Notes under the pieces: model-generated
The model's database searches: none
The model's input: only the letters and a program-made list of their open reading frames with translations
What the model was told of the DNA's origin: nothing
NCBI RefSeq assembly: GCF_058153355.1
Contig: NZ_CM177019.1
Length of the DNA stretch: 64,000 nucleotides
Strand: one strand, 5' to 3'
Shown here: in pieces, positions 989 to 53,009 of the stretch
How positions within the stretch are numbered: the stretch's first letter is position 1
How the letters are laid out: each line of letters begins with the position of its first letter
Position numbers and translations under genes: made by a program

Positions 989-2377
989 ATGGAAAACAAG
1001 TCTGCTCGTGCAAAGGTCCAGGCTTTTGGGGGCTTTTTGACGGCAATGGTCATCCCCAATATTGGTGCTTTTATTGCCTGGGGTTTTATTACTGCATTAT
1101 TTATTCCTACTGGTTGGCTGCCTAACGAACATTTCGCCAAAATTGTCGGCCCGATGATTACCTATTTATTGCCCGTAATGATTGGTTCTACCGGTGGCCA
1201 TTTAGTCGGCGGTAAACGCGGCGCAGTCATGGGCGGAATAGGGACAATTGGTGTAATCGTCGGCGCAGAAATCCCGATGTTCCTTGGTTCAATGATCATG
1301 GGACCGTTAGGTGGGCTGGTCATAAAATATGTCGATAAGGCACTGGAAAAACGCATACCTGCTGGTTTTGAGATGGTTATCAATAACTTCTCATTAGGTA
1401 TCACCGGGATGCTCCTTTGTCTGCTGGGTTTTGAAGTTATCGGCCCGGCGGTGTTAATTGCCAATACTTTCGTCAAAGAGTGTATTGAGGCGCTGGTACA
1501 TGCGGGCTATCTGCCTTTGCTGTCAGTCATCAATGAACCGGCGAAAGTGCTTTTCCTCAATAACGCGATAGATCAGGGCGTCTATTACCCGTTGGGGATG
1601 CAACAGGCTTCAGTTAACGGTAAATCCATCTTCTTTATGGTGGCGTCCAACCCTGGGCCTGGCTTAGGACTGTTGCTGGCGTTTACTTTGTTTGGTAAAG
1701 GGATGAGTAAACGTTCTGCGCCCGGGGCGATGATTATTCACTTCCTCGGTGGGATCCACGAACTGTATTTCCCGTATGTGCTGATGAAGCCGCTGACCAT
1801 TATTGCCATGATTGCGGGCGGTATGTCTGGCACCTGGATGTTTAACTTACTGGACGGTGGTCTGGTGGCTGGCCCAAGTCCAGGCTCTATCTTTGCGTAC
1901 CTGGCACTGACGCCGAAAGGCTCATTCCTGGCGACAATTGCCGGTGTTACGGTAGGTACCCTGGTGTCCTTTGCTATCACTTCCGTAATACTGAAGATGG
2001 AAAAAACGGTGGAAACGGAGAGCGAAGATGAGTTTGTGCAGTCCGCCAATGCGGTTAAGGCGATGAAACAAGAAGGTACATTCTCGTTAAGCCGGGTTAA
2101 GCGTATCGCCTTTGTTTGCGATGCGGGAATGGGCTCCAGCGCGATGGGCGCAACCACCTTCCGTAAGCGCCTGGAAAAAGCGGGGCTGGCAATAGAAGTA
2201 AAACATTACGCGATAGAAAACGTGCCTGCGGATGTGGATATCGTCGTTACTCACGCTAGTCTGGAAGGGCGCGTGAAACGTGTGACGGATAAACCGCTGA
2301 TATTGATTAATAACTATATTGGCGATCCCAAACTCGACACTTTATTTAATCAATTAACCGCTGAACATAAAAACTGA
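989..2377 (+). CDS. cmtA: PTS mannitol-like enzyme IICB component
   Basis: 462-aa ORF with polytopic membrane N-terminus and C-terminal IIB domain; recognised as CmtA. Confidence 0.9.
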   Translation: MENKSARAKVQAFGGFLTAMVIPNIGAFIAWGFITALFIPTGWLPNEHFAKIVGPMITYLLPVMIGSTGGHLVGGKRGAVMGGIGTIGVIVGAEIPMFLGSMIMGPLGGLVIKYVDKALEKRIPAGFEMVINNFSLGITGMLLCLLGFEVIGPAVLIANTFVKECIEALVHAGYLPLLSVINEPAKVLFLNNAIDQGVYYPLGMQQASVNGKSIFFMVASNPGPGLGLLLAFTLFGKGMSKRSAPGAMIIHFLGGIHELYFPYVLMKPLTIIAMIAGGMSGTWMFNLLDGGLVAGPSPGSIFAYLALTPKGSFLATIAGVTVGTLVSFAITSVILKMEKTVETESEDEFVQSANAVKAMKQEGTFSLSRVKRIAFVCDAGMGSSAMGATTFRKRLEKAGLAIEVKHYAIENVPADVDIVVTHASLEGRVKRVTDKPLILINNYIGDPKLDTLFNQLTAEHKN

Positions 2378-3669: not shown

Positions 3670-4631
3670 TGTCCCTGGCGTGGCCATTATTTCGCGTTAC
3701 GGAGCAGGCAGCGTTGGCTGCCTGGCCGCAAACCGGATGTGGCAACAAAAATAAAATTGATGGCCTGGCGGTCACCGCGATGCGCCAGGCATTAAACGAT
3801 GTCGCTTTTCGTGGGCGAGTGGTCATCGGCGAGGGAGAAATTGACCATGCGCCGATGCTGTGGATTGGCGAAGAGGTGGGCAAAGGCGATGGGCCAGAAG
3901 TCGATATCGCGGTTGATCCCATTGAAGGTACGCGGATGGTGGCGATGGGGCAGAGCAATGCGCTGGCGGTCATGGCTTTCGCCCCTCGAGATAGCCTGTT
4001 ACACGCGCCCGATATGTATATGAAAAAACTGGTTGTTAATCGGCTGGCGGCGGGCGCGATTGATCTGTCTTTGCCTCTGGCGGACAACTTGCGCAACGTG
4101 GCGAAAGCGTTAGGCAAACCGCTGGACAAGCTGCGTATGGTTACGCTGGATAAACCGCGCCTGAGTGCCGCAATTGAGGAAGCGACGCAACTGGGCGTGA
4201 AGGTTTTTGCCCTGCCGGATGGCGATGTCGCCGCCAGCGTGCTGACCTGCTGGCAGGATAATCCTTACGATGTGATGTACACCATCGGCGGTGCGCCAGA
4301 AGGTGTGATTTCTGCCTGTGCCGTTAAAGCATTAGGCGGGGATATGCAGGCCGAGCTGATTGACTTTTGTCAGGCCAAAGGGGATTACACGGAAAATCGG
4401 CAGATTGCAGAGCAGGAACGCCAGCGTTGCAAGGCAATGGGCGTTGACGTTAACCGTGTGTACTCGCTCGATGAACTGGTGAGGGGGAACGATATCCTCT
4501 TTAGCGCTACGGGCGTGACGGGCGGTGAGTTGGTGAACGGTATCCAACAGACGGCGAATGGGGTGCGGACGCAGACATTACTGATCGGCGGCGCGGACCA
4601 AACGTGTAATATAATAGACTCCCTGCATTGA
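3666..4631 (+). CDS. yggF: fructose-1,6-bisphosphatase class II (GlpX paralogue)
   Basis: 321-aa ORF overlapping yggP stop by 4 bp; GlpX-like sequence. Confidence 0.85.
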   Translation: MMSLAWPLFRVTEQAALAAWPQTGCGNKNKIDGLAVTAMRQALNDVAFRGRVVIGEGEIDHAPMLWIGEEVGKGDGPEVDIAVDPIEGTRMVAMGQSNALAVMAFAPRDSLLHAPDMYMKKLVVNRLAAGAIDLSLPLADNLRNVAKALGKPLDKLRMVTLDKPRLSAAIEEATQLGVKVFALPDGDVAASVLTCWQDNPYDVMYTIGGAPEGVISACAVKALGGDMQAELIDFCQAKGDYTENRQIAEQERQRCKAMGVDVNRVYSLDELVRGNDILFSATGVTGGELVNGIQQTANGVRTQTLLIGGADQTCNIIDSLH

Positions 4632-48853: not shown

Positions 48854-48888
48854 GCATTACGTTATGCTCACAACCCCGGCAAATGTCG

Positions 48889-50314
48889 TAATGCCAGTCA
48901 GTTAAGCAACTGACTGGCTCTTTTTCGGGGCTGTGGGGTATTTCCAGGGCCTCTCCTTTACCACTCTCGGGAAGGCCCTTTCCCTTCTTGTCGGTAATTT
49001 CACAAGTTGTCCCATACTTGCAAGATCGCGCATCAGCTCCGGTATACGTCCCGGTGAAGCGCCCTGCAATGTCATCAGCATTCTCATCACCATTCCGCAT
49101 GATTCTGAGAAACTCAGTTGATTCGGCCAGTAACCTTTCAGATGTTCCGCCATTTTAATCATCTGATATCTCACCAGATTATAAGCCAGTAAGACACCCC
49201 ACAGCTCTTGCTCCACAAGCTCCGGCTTTTTACTTCTCAGCGTCAGCCTGCTCAGTTGCATCGTCTGTTTTATCTCCCTGTATCCCAGTTCGATTTCCCA
49301 GCGATGACTGTACAGATCCGCCATTTCTCCTCCGGGGAAGCGCATGGCGTCCGTCATCGACGTCAGCAGATGGCAGACTTTTCCTTTGCGCGTCACGGTC
49401 AGCAGGCGGGCTGTCACTTCATTTCCCAGTCCCGGCCACTTTTTTCGTGCCTGCGGGCTGGTTTTCAGCTTCACCAGATGATCGCCTTTACCCAGTTTTC
49501 TGATCTCTTCATATTGCGCTCCCTTTCTGAGAGGTATCATCCAGTGGCGGTGTTCTCCCGCCAGGCTCCAGGCATTTAACAGTCCCAGTGAGTAATAACC
49601 TTTATCCATTAACGTCAGAGTGTTATCGCCGGTTTGTTCTATAAGTTGCTCAGCAAGCTCATTTTCGCTGTTCTTCATCGTGCCGAAGGCTGCAGCCGTC
49701 AGCAGATGGCTGGTCAGTTCCATCTGGCAGACCATTTTGACCTGCGGGTAGAGCGCCGGGTTCCCGGCATGTGTCTGGCGGGGGAAGGCTGCATCGTTCT
49801 CTGGTGTATCCGGTGTGCGCCAGAACACACCATCGATGGCCAGCAGGGTCAGGCCGCACCAGTGCGGATGCGGCGTGGCGTTATGCCAGAGCTGCGCTGT
49901 TTTCGTGAACACGCGGCGGACAGCCTCACTTCCCAGGCGCTGGCGGGCCTGAATAACGGCACTGGGGGCAACGAAGGGGCGATTGCCCGGCAGCATGATG
50001 TCCAGGCGATTCACAATCTGGTGAAGAGGTTCTTTACGCTCAAGCGCCATGCCAACAATACACCAGACCATCATTTCGAGGGGAAGACGGCGCTTGCGTA
50101 GCGTTACAGTACCTGATTCGGCAAGGCAACGAGAGATGAGTTCGGGGTCGAGGTAATCCCCCAGAGAAGTCAGTGGGTTACGCAGAGAATCGTAACGGGA
50201 TACCAGATCAAGAGCCTGTCCAATGTGCATAAAAAAATCCGGAAACAAGTGAGCGTTTCCGGATTCTTACACAGCCACTGGATCGGTCAACTGATCCTTA
50301 ACTGATCGGCATTA
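48889..50314 (-). mobile_element. IS4 insertion sequence
   Basis: 1426 bp; 18-bp imperfect terminal inverted repeats TAATGCCAGTCAGTTAAG (48889-48906) and CTTAACTGATCGGCATTA (50297-50314); flanked by 12-bp direct repeat CGGCAAATGTCG at 48877-48888 and 50315-50326. Confidence 0.92.
48902..50230 (-). CDS. insG: IS4 transposase
   Basis: Start at ATG 50230 ([14 protein letters not shown]); 442 aa; the ORF-track start at 50248 is not ATG. Confidence 0.9.
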
Positions 50315-50333
50315 CGGCAAATGTCGGGGTTTT

Positions 50334-50877
50334 TTATTTAAGCTGGGTAAATGCAGATAATCGTTTTCTGGCTTCGCGATTTGTCGCCTGCATCACCATC
50401 CACGGACTGAACGCCCACGGCGTGGCATCAATACCGCGTAAAACCGCTGCTAAATCACACCATTGATAATCCATCACTTCATCATCGTTGATCTGTAACG
50501 CACTGGTCGTGCGTGCGGCAAATACCGGACATACTTCATTTCTACAATGCCATTCGGATCGGTGGCGCGATAGCGAAAGTCAGGATAGATTCAGGAGGTG
50601 TAATTTCCACGCCAAGCTCATAACGGCAACGGCGGATCACCGCGTCTTCGTTGCTTTCTCCCAGTTGTGGGTGCCCACAAACCGAGTTAGTCCACACGCC
50701 CGGCCATGCTTTTTTGCTAAGGGCGCGGCGGGTAACTAATAATTGCCCTTTGGCATTAAACAGCCAGCAGGAGAACGCGAGATGTAAGAGAGTGTCTGCC
50801 GTGTGTGCGGCATACTTTTCCAGCGTACCCGTGGGAACTCCCTGTGCATTCAATAAAATGACGTGTTCCGTTTGCAT
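50334..50877 (-). pseudogene. idi: isopentenyl-diphosphate isomerase, disrupted by frameshifts
   Basis: N-terminal 111 codons (50542-50877) end at a premature stop; the Idi-like C-terminus ([13 protein letters not shown]...[17 protein letters not shown]) continues in a different frame to the stop at 50334-50336. Locus is 544 bp against 549 expected for a 182-aa gene. Confidence 0.7.
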
Positions 50878-50998
50878 AATTTCTCACATGTAATTCTAAT
50901 CACTCATCATTATAGATAATTGAAGAGTGAAATGATTAACCAAGTGAGCGTTTATCGACAACCGCCCGTTTTGAGCGGATGTCGACAGGTAAAACCAT

Positions 50999-51124
50999 TT
51001 AAAAAAGCAGCATCATATATTTGAAGCGACTTTCAATGGCCATTGCAACACAGTCAGAAATGACAGGAATAGAGAGAGTAAAAAGCAACAACAGACTGAA
51101 TATAGCGCGCATTAAAAGATTCAT
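50999..51124 (-). CDS. small hydrophobic protein (41 aa), possibly coupled to uacT
   Basis: ATG at 51122-51124 lies 1 nt after the uacT stop (TAATATG) with GGAG 9 nt upstream; product MNLLMRAIFSLLLLFTLSIPVISDCVAMAIESRFKYMMLLF; below the ORF-track length cut-off. Confidence 0.4.
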   Translation of the reverse strand: MNLLMRAIFSLLLLFTLSIPVISDCVAMAIESRFKYMMLLF

Positions 51125-51125
51125 A

Positions 51126-52574
51126 TTATTCTCCATGCTCATTTTTCTTCAGCTTGCGCATCAGAAGCCACATACGTACTGTCCTGACTTTTAAATCTTT
51201 ATCAGAGACGGATTCCTTCACCAGATCAGCATGATGCTGATAGCCATTAAAGAAGACGTTCAGCGCAACGGCGCTAAGGGTTGCGAGCATAATGCCGCTA
51301 TGCAGCAACGGTTGCAGTACGGCCGGTAACTTAGAAAAGAAATCGTGAGAGAGCGTCGGAGTCATGCCAACGCCGAGACTGATCGCCACAATATAGAGGT
51401 TGTAACGGTTAGTGGTGTAGTTACAGCGCGACAGAATTCGAATCCCCGTCGCCAGTACCATGCCGAACATCACCAGCCCTGCGCCGCCAAGCACAAATTG
51501 CGGAATCGAGGCTACCAGCACCGCCATTTTGGGCACCATGCCAAACATGATTAATATGATCCCCGAAGAAATACACACCCAGCGACTATGAACGCGAGTC
51601 ACGCTAACCAGGCCAACGTTTTGAGAAAATGACGTGTGGGGGAAGCTGTTAAACGTTCCGCCTATCATTGTCCCTACACCATCGACACGCAGCCCGCGAA
51701 TAATATCGTGCGAAGAGAGTTTACGACCGACTATTTCACCCAGTGCCAGGAACATCCCCATCGACTCGATAAACACGATGATTAACACAGCGGTCATGGT
51801 TAGAATAGAAACGGGGTCAAATACCGGCATACCAAACGACATTGGGGTGACAATCGCAAACCACGAAGCATCATGTAGCCCGGACAAATTGACTTCATTC
51901 ATCATCCACGAAAGTAAAAAGCCAAATACAATCCCCAGTAATACGGCGACGTTGGACATAAATCCTTTCGCATAGCGAGTAATGAGCAAGATAAAAATTA
52001 AGACGGCAAAGGAGATACCTAAATAAACGGGATTACCATATTGCGGATTCCCTTCACCTCCAGCGGCCCAGTCAATACCGACCTGAATAATGCTAAGCCC
52101 GATAGAAGTAATAACCACACCGGTAACCAGTGGCGGGAATAAAGGCATTAAGCGACCGATAAGTGGTGCTAATAATGTGGTGATAAATCCCGCGGCGATA
52201 GTGGCACCAAATATCCCCAGCAGGCCGATATCCGGGTTCATGCCAATGGCTATCATTGGTGTTACAGCAGCAAAGGTTACCGACATAATCACCGGCAGAC
52301 GGATCCCCATAAAGCGGCCGATACCGATACATTGTAATAATGTGACGATCCCGCAGCAAAAGAGATCCGAGCTAATGAGCATCGCAATAGCTTCTTTTGA
52401 GAGGCCCAGTCGGTCACCAATCATAAGAGGAACAGCGACTGCACCTGCGTACATTACAAGGACGTGTTGCAGACCGAGTATGATCAGCTTTCCTGGTGAT
52501 AATATGCGGTCAACCTCATCAGTTGGGCGGTCTTGCCCTGAAGATGAGGGAAGTTGGGAATCTATGGCGCTCAT
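51126..52574 (-). CDS. uacT: uric acid:proton symporter (NCS2 family)
   Basis: Start at 52574 (MSAIDSQLPSSSGQDR); 482 aa. Confidence 0.88.
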   Translation of the reverse strand: MSAIDSQLPSSSGQDRPTDEVDRILSPGKLIILGLQHVLVMYAGAVAVPLMIGDRLGLSKEAIAMLISSDLFCCGIVTLLQCIGIGRFMGIRLPVIMSVTFAAVTPMIAIGMNPDIGLLGIFGATIAAGFITTLLAPLIGRLMPLFPPLVTGVVITSIGLSIIQVGIDWAAGGEGNPQYGNPVYLGISFAVLIFILLITRYAKGFMSNVAVLLGIVFGFLLSWMMNEVNLSGLHDASWFAIVTPMSFGMPVFDPVSILTMTAVLIIVFIESMGMFLALGEIVGRKLSSHDIIRGLRVDGVGTMIGGTFNSFPHTSFSQNVGLVSVTRVHSRWVCISSGIILIMFGMVPKMAVLVASIPQFVLGGAGLVMFGMVLATGIRILSRCNYTTNRYNLYIVAISLGVGMTPTLSHDFFSKLPAVLQPLLHSGIMLATLSAVALNVFFNGYQHHADLVKESVSDKDLKVRTVRMWLLMRKLKKNEHGE

Positions 52575-53009
52575 CAGTGTTTCTCCTTTCGCCCGCCAGA
52601 GTAAAAAGCAACCGTTTACGTTATTGAAACTGTCTAAACATATGCTCGTGGAGTGCCAGTTTTTGCGAGGAAGGGGAGTTAGAGACAGGAATTGCGGAGG
52701 CAATCACATAATCGTGGTTAAACCACGAAAATGAGAAGAGAACCTGACAATGGAATTATCTGTAATTTTCTCATATTGATATTTTATTAATCATTCTGGC
52801 ATGTCGCACTCTCGCATTTAATCGTTTTTATCTGGATAGCGCTCTTTTGGTCGGCAATGTTGAAATAATGAAAGCGGCACAGATTGAGGGGCAATAATTT
52901 GAACTCAGTCGCAAAATTATAATTAAAACGGTCATGCTACCTAATATATGCCCGTTTATTGCATCGCGAACTTTGAGAAGACATAACTCATTAAATGAAA
53001 GGGATGCAA

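What the first reader, a model, noticed from the sequence alone, without database searches (positions are those of the whole stretch)
50999..51124. Unlisted 41-codon hydrophobic ORF coupled to the uacT stop
The ATG sits 1 nt past the uacT stop codon (TAATATG) with a GGAG Shine-Dalgarno, and encodes a signal-peptide-like or single-TM peptide. This may be a small membrane protein co-translated with the uric acid transporter. I am not sure whether it is already annotated in reference genomes.
Basis: seen in the sequence. Interest (0 to 1): 0.4.

Follow-up and report, generated by a model that had tools for sequence, protein, structure and literature searches.

The report
Known small membrane protein gene yqfG
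The 41-codon ORF just after the uric-acid transporter gene is yqfG, a small E. coli membrane protein gene that is already annotated and has been studied experimentally, so the finding is real but not new.

Summary
On the minus strand, ATG 51124..51122 lies 1 nt after the uacT stop (TAATATG). GGAG sits 6 nt upstream, and the 41 codons encode a very hydrophobic peptide.

It is not unannotated. It is yqfG (b4684 in MG1655), called "protein YqfG" in RefSeq E. coli genomes. It is 40/41 identical to the K-12 protein.

Published work treats YqfG as a small inner-membrane protein of unknown function, predicted N-in/C-out. It is a validated substrate of the intramembrane protease RseP, both in vivo and in vitro.

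My own tests confirm protein-level selection. pN/pS is 0.04-0.19 within Escherichia, and 12-13 of 15-16 substitutions fall at third codon positions.

The family is tiny and has no Pfam or NCBIfam model. It also occurs in Citrobacter, Kluyvera, Klebsiella, Enterobacter and Apirhabdus. In every locus examined it lies directly 3' of a urate-type NCS2 permease, usually -1 to +4 nt from the stop. The permeases fall into two clades only 41-45% identical, and the downstream gene differs between loci.

That supports a permease-linked role. A crude AlphaFold fusion test gave no support for docking, so function remains unknown.

Verdict: already known, low interest.

The parts
50999..51124 (-). yqfG CDS (41 codons plus TAA), a small single-pass membrane protein. 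N-tail MNLLMR, hydrophobic segment about residues 7-29, 12-residue C-tail IESRFKYMMLLF.
   Evidence: Sequence and translation. DNA-identical region annotated yqfG in strain 203740, and the same CDS in K-12 and MG1655. 40/41 identical to K-12 YqfG. pN/pS 0.04-0.19. Published TM/tail partition. AlphaFold predicts helices 3-17 and 20-40.
51131..51134 (-). GGAG Shine-Dalgarno-like motif for yqfG, inside the last codons of uacT, 6 nt before the ATG.
   Evidence: Direct reading. The equivalent motif is GGTG in E. albertii and cryptic clades, AGGA in Citrobacter and GGAGGGG in Klebsiella. The local mRNA is not structured (z +1.3).
51126..52574 (-). uacT (ygfU), urate:H+ symporter, 482 aa. Its TAA stop (51128..51126) lies 1 nt before the yqfG ATG.
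   Evidence: The translation matches UacT at 97-98% in Escherichia loci. Annotated uacT in RefSeq.
50953..50987 (-). Stable hairpin beginning about 12 nt after the yqfG stop. Probably the 3'-end structure or terminator of the uacT-yqfG transcript, although it has no canonical T-tract.
   Evidence: MFE -22.9 kcal/mol, z -4.6. Structurally equivalent hairpins with different stem sequences occur in E. albertii (z -6.2), cryptic Escherichia (z -5.0) and Citrobacter (z -4.5). The consensus terminator scan did not call it.
50932..51024 (+). Antisense small ORF corresponding to yqfH (b4753). It is 30 aa here, against 23 aa in K-12, and overlaps the yqfG 3' end by 26 nt.
   Evidence: ORF list. Annotated yqfH in K-12 and 'hypothetical protein' in the identical strain. 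K-12 sequence from PMC6001520. A 1-nt indel in a T-run changes its C-terminus.

Best explanation
The ORF is yqfG, a genuine small protein gene that is already annotated.

Shown here or in the literature:
- It encodes a 41-residue hydrophobic protein whose amino-acid sequence is under purifying selection.
- As an HA-MBP fusion, the K-12 protein (one residue different) is integral to the inner membrane.
- The K-12 protein is cut within its membrane segment by the site-2 protease RseP. This was seen with plasmid-borne RseP, with chromosomal RseP and with purified enzyme.

Inferred:
- It sits N-in/C-out, with residues about 7-29 in the membrane, a conserved Pro20 kink, a small-xxx-small motif at positions 25 and 29, and a 12-residue periplasmic tail carrying an invariant R-F (a nearly invariant S-R-F) and a hydrophobic/aromatic C-terminus.
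- It is made from the uacT mRNA. Ribosomes either terminate at the uacT stop and restart 1 nt downstream, or initiate directly at the open GGAG-N6-AUG site.
- Its short tail and hydrophobic C-terminus let it enter RseP without a prior site-1 cut, so RseP sets its lifetime.

Most likely function, which I put at only about 0.3: a non-essential accessory or modulator of the urate-type NCS2 permease it is encoded with, in the manner of other small proteins that bind transporters.
For: Identity:
- The same CDS is annotated yqfG in MG1655 (b4684), NEB5-alpha and a DNA-identical strain.
- 29 of 30 evenly sampled E. coli genomes list yqfG under the match, and 5347 of 5426 genomes hold the region.
- 40/41 identity to K-12 YqfG.

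Coding constraint:
- Sd 7 / Nd 1 against E. albertii, and Sd 9.5 / Nd 5.5-6.5 against cryptic clades.
- Third-position excess, p = 0.003 to 0.0001.
- Natural in-frame indel alleles.

Family:
- 29 representatives among 1.84 billion, at E <= 0.001.
- Members in Citrobacter, Kluyvera, Klebsiella, Enterobacter and Apirhabdus/Erwinia sp.
- P20, R33 and F34 are invariant. R6 and S32 are conserved in at least 90% of members.

Linkage:
- Every member examined lies directly 3' of a 482-490-aa Xan_ur_permease. The junction is -1, +1 or +4 nt, except +66 nt in Kluyvera.
- The next gene is idi, an FdhF-like molybdoenzyme or a phosphatase, depending on the locus.
- The permeases form two clades only 41-45% identical.
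- A family HMM hits nowhere else in 98 loci.

Membrane and RseP: PMC4597795 and PMC10470546, including its supplement.

Helical model: mean pLDDT 84.
Against: - The function is unknown in the literature, and nothing here shows a physical or functional link to UacT.
- In a UacT-linker-YqfG AlphaFold model, the YqfG segment scored lower (66/63/57/42) than it did alone (90/92/87/71). No confident docked pose was found.
- Close UacT orthologues in Serratia oryzae, Pluralibacter, Hafnia and Edwardsiella lack the peptide, and Cedecea keeps only a decayed stub. It therefore cannot be an obligatory subunit.
- Within Escherichia and Citrobacter, the adjacency could be plain inherited synteny.
- Topology is a TMHMM prediction that has not been tested experimentally.
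- RseP cleavage was shown on N-terminally tagged constructs, not on the native peptide.
- I could not retrieve ribosome-profiling or native-expression data. The primary discovery papers are not held in the library.
Confidence: 0.9

Rival explanations
1. YqfG is a precursor, not a membrane anchor. Its N-terminal part acts as a Sec signal peptide and is removed by signal peptidase I. This releases a 12-18-residue periplasmic peptide (for example IESRFKYMMLLF), the most conserved part of the family. RseP then merely clears the leftover signal peptide.
For: - It has n-h-c architecture: Arg6, a hydrophobic run of about 13 residues, then Pro20.
- The residue aligned with position 29, just before the tail, is always small (A/G/S). 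Position 27 is usually A/S/T, though N, E or I occur in six members. This loosely resembles a -3/-1 cleavage site.
- The tail carries the invariant R-F.
- RseP is known to degrade remnant signal peptides.
Against: - The putative cleavage site lies about 10 residues after the helix-breaking Pro. That is longer than a usual c-region.
- N or E at -3 in some members is unfavourable for cleavage.
- The same small residues fit a small-xxx-small helix-packing motif equally well.
- HA-MBP-YqfG behaved as a full-length integral membrane protein that RseP cut directly, without a prior processing step.
- No signal-peptidase predictor or experiment was available here.
Confidence: 0.08
2. Only the act of translating the ORF matters, in cis. 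Ribosomes running to the yqfG stop would protect the uacT 3' end, prevent Rho termination, or control formation of the downstream hairpin and read-through into idi. On this view the peptide itself has no role.
For: - The ORF ends about 12 nt before a conserved stable hairpin.
- The junction with uacT is very tight.
Against: - The amino-acid sequence is conserved, not just the open frame. pN/pS is 0.04-0.19.
- P20, R33 and F34 are invariant across genera whose nucleotide sequences and downstream genes differ.
- In Klebsiella and Enterobacter another gene follows 17-27 nt later, with no hairpin.
Confidence: 0.04
3. YqfG is a hydrophobic type I toxin-like peptide, like the Hok or Ibs families. 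Its expression would be checked by an antisense transcript from the yqfH side and by RseP degradation.
For: - It is small, hydrophobic and single-pass.
- An antisense ORF or transcript (yqfH) overlaps its 3' end.
- RseP also degrades Hok toxins.
Against: - It has no promoter of its own and no long folded 5' leader. It is embedded in a transporter operon with an open ribosome-binding site.
- It is strictly single-copy and always next to a permease.
- The passages of the RseP papers that I read mention no toxicity for the tagged YqfG constructs, whereas HokA expression is described as severely growth-inhibiting.
- The yqfH sequence is not conserved even within Escherichia.
Confidence: 0.03
4. 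It is a chance ORF with no product, kept open only by composition.
For: A 41-codon open frame occurs in about 12% of random sequences of this composition.
Against: - Third-position substitution bias.
- Conservation across six genera.
- Published experimental work on the K-12 protein, using N-terminally tagged constructs expressed from plasmids or synthesised in vitro.
Confidence: 0.01

Closest known systems
YqfG of E. coli K-12 (b4684, YP_002791254.1 / WP_001010156.1)
   Same: Same locus, strand relationship, length, junction with uacT and downstream hairpin. 40 of 41 residues are identical.
   Different: Leu3 instead of Phe3. In this lineage the antisense yqfH reading frame is 7 codons longer, and idi next door is a pseudogene.
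Other small RseP-cleaved inner-membrane proteins of E. coli (YkgR, YshB, Blr, HokB/E; 'Class I' substrates in PMC10470546)
   Same: Fewer than 50 residues, a single predicted N-in/C-out span, a very short periplasmic tail, and direct cleavage by RseP.
   Different: No sequence relationship. YqfG is the only one encoded immediately after an NCS2 permease.
Transporter-associated small membrane proteins (KdpF with KdpABC, AcrZ with AcrB, MgtS with MgtA/PitA, CydX with CydAB). Their roles are taken from established knowledge, not tested here.
   Same: A single hydrophobic helix. Like kdpF and cydX, it is encoded in the operon of the membrane complex it would act on. It is dispensable in some lineages.
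   Different: No binding to UacT and no effect on it has been shown. The AlphaFold fusion test gave no support. There is no homology to any of these proteins.
Sec signal peptides
   Same: A positively charged N-end, a hydrophobic core, a helix breaker, then small residues. Signal peptides are also RseP substrates.
   Different: No mature domain follows, only 12 residues. The published behaviour is that of an intact membrane protein.

Membership tests
YqfG (E. coli small membrane protein) | CDS located between uacT and idi, on the uacT strand, starting 1 nt after the uacT stop | tested here: met
YqfG (E. coli small membrane protein) | Sequence identity to the reference protein over the full length | tested here: met
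   40/41 identical to K-12. 41/41 identical to WP_001050745.1 of strain 203740.
YqfG (E. coli small membrane protein) | Protein-coding constraint in this reading frame | tested here: met
   pN/pS 0.04-0.19. 12-13 of 15-16 differences at third positions, p about 1e-4.
YqfG (E. coli small membrane protein) | Single membrane-spanning hydrophobic helix | tested here: met
   Hydropathy up to 2.18 over 19 residues. AlphaFold helices 3-17 and 20-40. Published TMHMM partition. All of these are predictions.
YqfG (E. coli small membrane protein) | Protein is made, is membrane-integral and is cleaved by RseP | not testable with these tools
   Published for the K-12 allele with N-terminally tagged constructs, not the native peptide (PMC4597795, PMC10470546). 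Not tested for this allele.
Bacterial lipoprotein | Lipobox L-[AS]-[GAS]-C with an invariant Cys | tested here: not met
   The sequence is V-I-S-D-C, with Asp at -1. The Cys is replaced by G, S or A in Citrobacter, Kluyvera, Klebsiella and Enterobacter.
Cleavable Sec signal peptide | n-h-c regions with small residues at -3/-1 within about 3-7 residues of the hydrophobic core | tested here: inconclusive
   The n and h regions are present. A small residue at column 29 is invariant, but it lies about 10 residues past Pro20, and -3 is N or E in some members. No cleavage predictor or experiment was available.
Transporter-bound small accessory protein (KdpF/AcrZ/MgtS type) | Encoded with, or co-regulated with, the transporter | tested here: met
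   Directly 3' of the permease in every family member examined, across two permease clades.
Transporter-bound small accessory protein (KdpF/AcrZ/MgtS type) | Physical association with the transporter | tested here: inconclusive
   In the fusion AlphaFold model, pLDDT of the peptide was lower than when modelled alone. This is a crude test: monomer only, 11 paired rows, and no PAE or coordinates.
Transporter-bound small accessory protein (KdpF/AcrZ/MgtS type) | Alters transporter activity or stability | not testable with these tools
   Needs genetics and uptake assays.
Any curated protein or RNA family | Match to a Pfam, NCBIfam or Rfam model above threshold | tested here: not met
   No hit reaches its cut-off.

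The most novel reading that the evidence does not exclude
YqfG-family peptides are dedicated partners of urate-type NCS2 permeases. They would be made in fixed proportion to the permease by translational coupling, bind it through the small-xxx-small helix face and the periplasmic S-R-F tail, and be removed by RseP. Envelope proteolysis would then tune urate uptake. This would be the first small-protein partner described for the NCS2/NAT transporter family, as far as I know.
Probability: 0.25. Interest if true: 0.45.

Novelty: already known. Interest (0 to 1): 0.12.

Why it matters
As a discovery it does not matter much. The gene has been in the K-12 annotation for years and serves as a model substrate for the RseP protease.

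What remains open is its function. This holds even where the permease is only 41-45% identical and the other neighbours differ.

That makes a permease-linked role directly testable with a start-codon knockout and a urate-uptake assay. It would also give physiological meaning to the published RseP cleavage.

Tried and rejected
- **Primary papers.** Hemm 2008, Hemm 2010, Fontaine 2011 and the EcoSal review are not held in the library. Native expression data for YqfG are therefore cited only through later papers. My recollection that YqfG was detected by chromosomal SPA-tagging is from memory.
- **Ribosome profiling.** The initiation-complex profiling preprint has no supplementary tables held, so I found no footprint data.
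- **Curated libraries.** Pfam, NCBIfam and Rfam give nothing above threshold.
- **Promoter and terminator scan.** No sigma-70-like promoter for yqfG, and the post-yqfG hairpin was not called as a terminator because it lacks a T-tract.
- **RBS occlusion.** The idea that mRNA structure hides the ribosome-binding site and enforces coupling is rejected. The junction folds no better than shuffled sequences.
- **Lipoprotein reading.** Rejected: Asp at -1 and a non-conserved Cys.
- **AlphaFold fusion of UacT and YqfG.** No gain in confidence for the peptide. This is inconclusive rather than negative, because only pLDDT is returned and UacT-type permeases are thought to work as dimers (from established knowledge).
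- **Longer gene-caller versions.** The 57-66-aa versions turned out to be stop-loss alleles with C-terminal extensions (one of them also called from an upstream ATG), and P0012 (51 aa) has an unrelated N-terminal extension. None points to a conserved upstream start, so they do not challenge the annotated start.

Full report
**1. The observation**

The ORF is on the minus strand.
- The uacT stop TAA occupies 51128..51126, followed by a single T.
- The ATG is at 51124..51122 and the frame closes with TAA at 51001..50999, giving 41 codons.
- GGAG lies at 51134..51131, 6 nt before the ATG.
- The product is MNLLMRAIFSLLLLFTLSIPVISDCVAMAIESRFKYMMLLF, with GRAVY +1.44.

A 41-codon open frame alone is weak evidence, because about 12% of random sequences of this composition stay open that long. 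A mechanical ORF list shows it as 47 aa from an in-frame ATG inside uacT.

**2. What it is**

A 381-nt query across the junction matched 5369 of 5426 complete E. coli genomes. In 29 of 30 evenly sampled records the feature under the match is "yqfG: protein YqfG".

The annotation tables place a 126-nt yqfG CDS 1 nt after uacT and before idi in three records:
- NEB5-alpha.
- Strain 203740, which is DNA-identical to the window over this stretch.
- MG1655, where it is b4684, YP_002791254.1, at 3032817..3032942.

The window's protein differs from K-12 YqfG at one residue, L3 against F3. So the ORF is not unannotated.

**3. What is published**

PMC4597795 describes YqfG as a small membrane protein of unknown function and cites Hemm et al. 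2008. It is predicted to be N-in/C-out.
- HA-MBP-YqfG is integral to the membrane and is cleaved by wild-type RseP, but not by catalytically dead RseP.
- Helix-destabilising substitutions at residues 8-15 modulate the cleavage.

PMC10470546 classes YqfG as a Class I RseP substrate. It was positive with plasmid-borne RseP, with chromosomal RseP and with purified RseP.

Its supplement gives the partition MNFLMR | AIFSLLLLFTLSIPVISDCVAMA | IESRFKYMMLLF and notes that the orientation has not been examined experimentally.

A 2014 promoter survey lists a constitutive promoter in the yqfG-idi spacer.

I could not open the primary discovery papers or find ribosome-profiling tables.

**4. Independent test of coding**

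| Comparison | Synonymous differences | Nonsynonymous differences | At third codon positions |
|---|---|---|---|
| E. albertii | 7 | 1 | 7 of 8 |
| Cryptic Escherichia clades | 9.5 | 5.5-6.5 | 12-13 of 15-16 |

pN/pS is 0.04-0.19, and the binomial p for the third-position excess is 0.003 to 0.0001. Natural alleles include in-frame insertions and deletions.

**5. The family**

A single-sequence search found only Escherichia and Shigella. I then looked downstream of uacT in other species:
- Citrobacter sp. R56 has a 41-aa orthologue (54% identity) with the same TAA-N-ATG junction.
- Kluyvera has a 38-aa relative 66 nt after the stop.
- Cedecea has a decayed stub.
- Serratia oryzae, Pluralibacter, Hafnia and Edwardsiella have nothing.

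Profile searches found more Citrobacter members and divergent 38-41-aa members. Cluster names place these in Klebsiella michiganensis/oxytoca/pasteurii, Enterobacter, and Apirhabdus/Erwinia sp..

The exhaustive search returned only 29 representatives at E <= 0.001 among 1.84 billion. There is no Pfam or NCBIfam model.

The alignment shows:
- Invariant P20, R33 and F34.
- R6, L14 and S32 conserved in at least 90% of members.
- Small residues at columns 25 and 29.
- A hydrophobic/aromatic C-terminus.

**6. Linkage to the permease**

Every member whose context I read lies directly 3' of a 482-490-aa Xan_ur_permease. The junctions are:
- TAATG, a 1-nt overlap, in Klebsiella and Enterobacter.
- +1 nt in Escherichia, Citrobacter and Apirhabdus/Erwinia sp.
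- +4 nt in one unnamed lineage.
- +66 nt, with its own AGGA site, in Kluyvera.

The stop codon itself varies (TAA, TGA, TAG) while the spacing is kept.

The gene after the peptide varies. It is idi, an FdhF-like molybdoenzyme or a phosphatase.

The permeases form two clades. Clade A (Escherichia, Citrobacter, Kluyvera) is 81-93% identical within the clade. Clade B (Klebsiella, Enterobacter, Apirhabdus, the unnamed lineage) is 72-88% identical. The two clades are only 41-45% identical to each other.

A family HMM scanned against all ORFs of 98 loci hit only these positions. The association is therefore with the permease and not with idi. It is also dispensable, since several close UacT orthologues lack it.

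**7. Mechanism**

Published for the K-12 protein, using N-terminally tagged constructs: membrane integration and RseP cleavage. Inferred: everything else.
- **Start site.** The mRNA around it is unstructured (z +1.3 and +1.8 for E. coli and E. albertii). Translation may be by reinitiation or by direct initiation. Occlusion-enforced coupling is not supported.
- **Structure.** AlphaFold models the peptide alone as two helical segments broken just before Pro20, with mean pLDDT 84.
- **Docking.** In a UacT-(GGGGS)5-YqfG fusion with 11 paired rows among 44 sequences, the peptide's pLDDT fell to 66/63/57/42. That gives no support for a confident docked pose. The test is crude.

I therefore rate the accessory-subunit idea at about 0.25-0.3. 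Rivals are a cleavable signal peptide releasing the conserved tail, cis-only translation, a toxin-like peptide and a chance ORF. I rate each lower, for the reasons given in the rival explanations.

**8. Surroundings**

- A stable hairpin follows the yqfG stop (50953..50987, z -4.6). It is conserved in structure, with different stem sequences, in E. albertii, cryptic clades and Citrobacter.
- The antisense yqfH ORF (PMC6001520) runs across this hairpin. In this window a 1-nt indel makes it 30 aa instead of 23 aa.
- idi is a pseudogene here, with 4-nt and 1-nt deletions.
- An IS4 copy sits between lysS and idi, an arrangement seen in only 3 of 5426 complete genomes.

**9. Verdict**

The finding is real, was correctly read, and is already known. 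The family-level linkage to urate permeases is a modest addition that makes the function testable.

Noticed in passing
window 50334..50877 (-): idi (isopentenyl-diphosphate isomerase) is a pseudogene here. It is 95% identical to K-12 idi but has a 4-nt and a 1-nt deletion that break the frame into 111-aa and 47-aa ORFs. uacT and yqfG next to it are intact.
   Followed up: partly
window about 48868..50335: An IS4 copy (transposase ORF 48902..50248, minus strand) lies between lysS and idi. Only 3 of 5426 complete E. coli genomes have IS4 at this spot, and at only about 98.3% identity, so the window comes from a lineage poorly represented there.
   Followed up: partly
window 50932..51024 (+): The antisense small ORF yqfH is 30 aa here (MINQVSVYRQPPVLSGCRQVKPFKKAASYI), against 23 aa in K-12, because of a 1-nt length change in a T-run. 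It overlaps the yqfG 3' end by 26 nt. RefSeq labels this version 'hypothetical protein'. Its sequence is not conserved in E. albertii.
   Followed up: partly
window 50953..50987 (-); L003 about 1950..1982; L017 about 4092..4121: The hairpin after yqfG is conserved in structure, with compensatory stem changes, between E. coli, E. albertii, cryptic Escherichia and Citrobacter. It lacks a T-tract and was not called as a terminator. yqfH is read antisense straight across it.
   Followed up: partly
C-terminus of the permease: window about 51129..51190 (-); L092, L094, L096, L097 just before position 4001: The cytoplasmic tail motif VRT[VM]RM[WF]LL[LM]RK is conserved in both permease clades, although they are only 41-45% identical overall. 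At least its last part (MWLLMRK / LLRK) is also present in the peptide-less Serratia oryzae and Pluralibacter permeases. AlphaFold gives it low confidence. Its role is unexplained.
   Followed up: no
L008 3636..3668 (Cedecea): An ATG 1 nt after the uacT stop (TAAGATG) opens MNFLALLQSY followed by two stops. This is apparently a decayed yqfG remnant.
   Followed up: no
proteins P0001, P0005, P0014, P0018, P0024, P0039, P0040: Minority E. coli alleles of yqfG. Stop-loss versions are extended by 16-21 residues through the hairpin region, and there are in-frame insertions or deletions of 2-4 residues in the hydrophobic segment.
   Followed up: no
L092 4138.., L094 4144.., L096 4145..: In Klebsiella, Enterobacter and one unnamed lineage, an FdhF-like molybdopterin oxidoreductase gene starts 17-27 nt after the peptide stop. 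The operon there reads permease, peptide, molybdoenzyme.
   Followed up: no
protein P0042: A 'protein YqfG, partial [Vibrio parahaemolyticus]' entry sits on a 216-nt contig and is 97% identical to the E. coli protein. It is most likely contamination or mislabelling.
   Followed up: no
window 51126..52703 (-): The mechanical ORF for uacT runs 525 aa from an upstream TTG. The annotated and conserved protein is 482 aa, starting at 52574.
   Followed up: no
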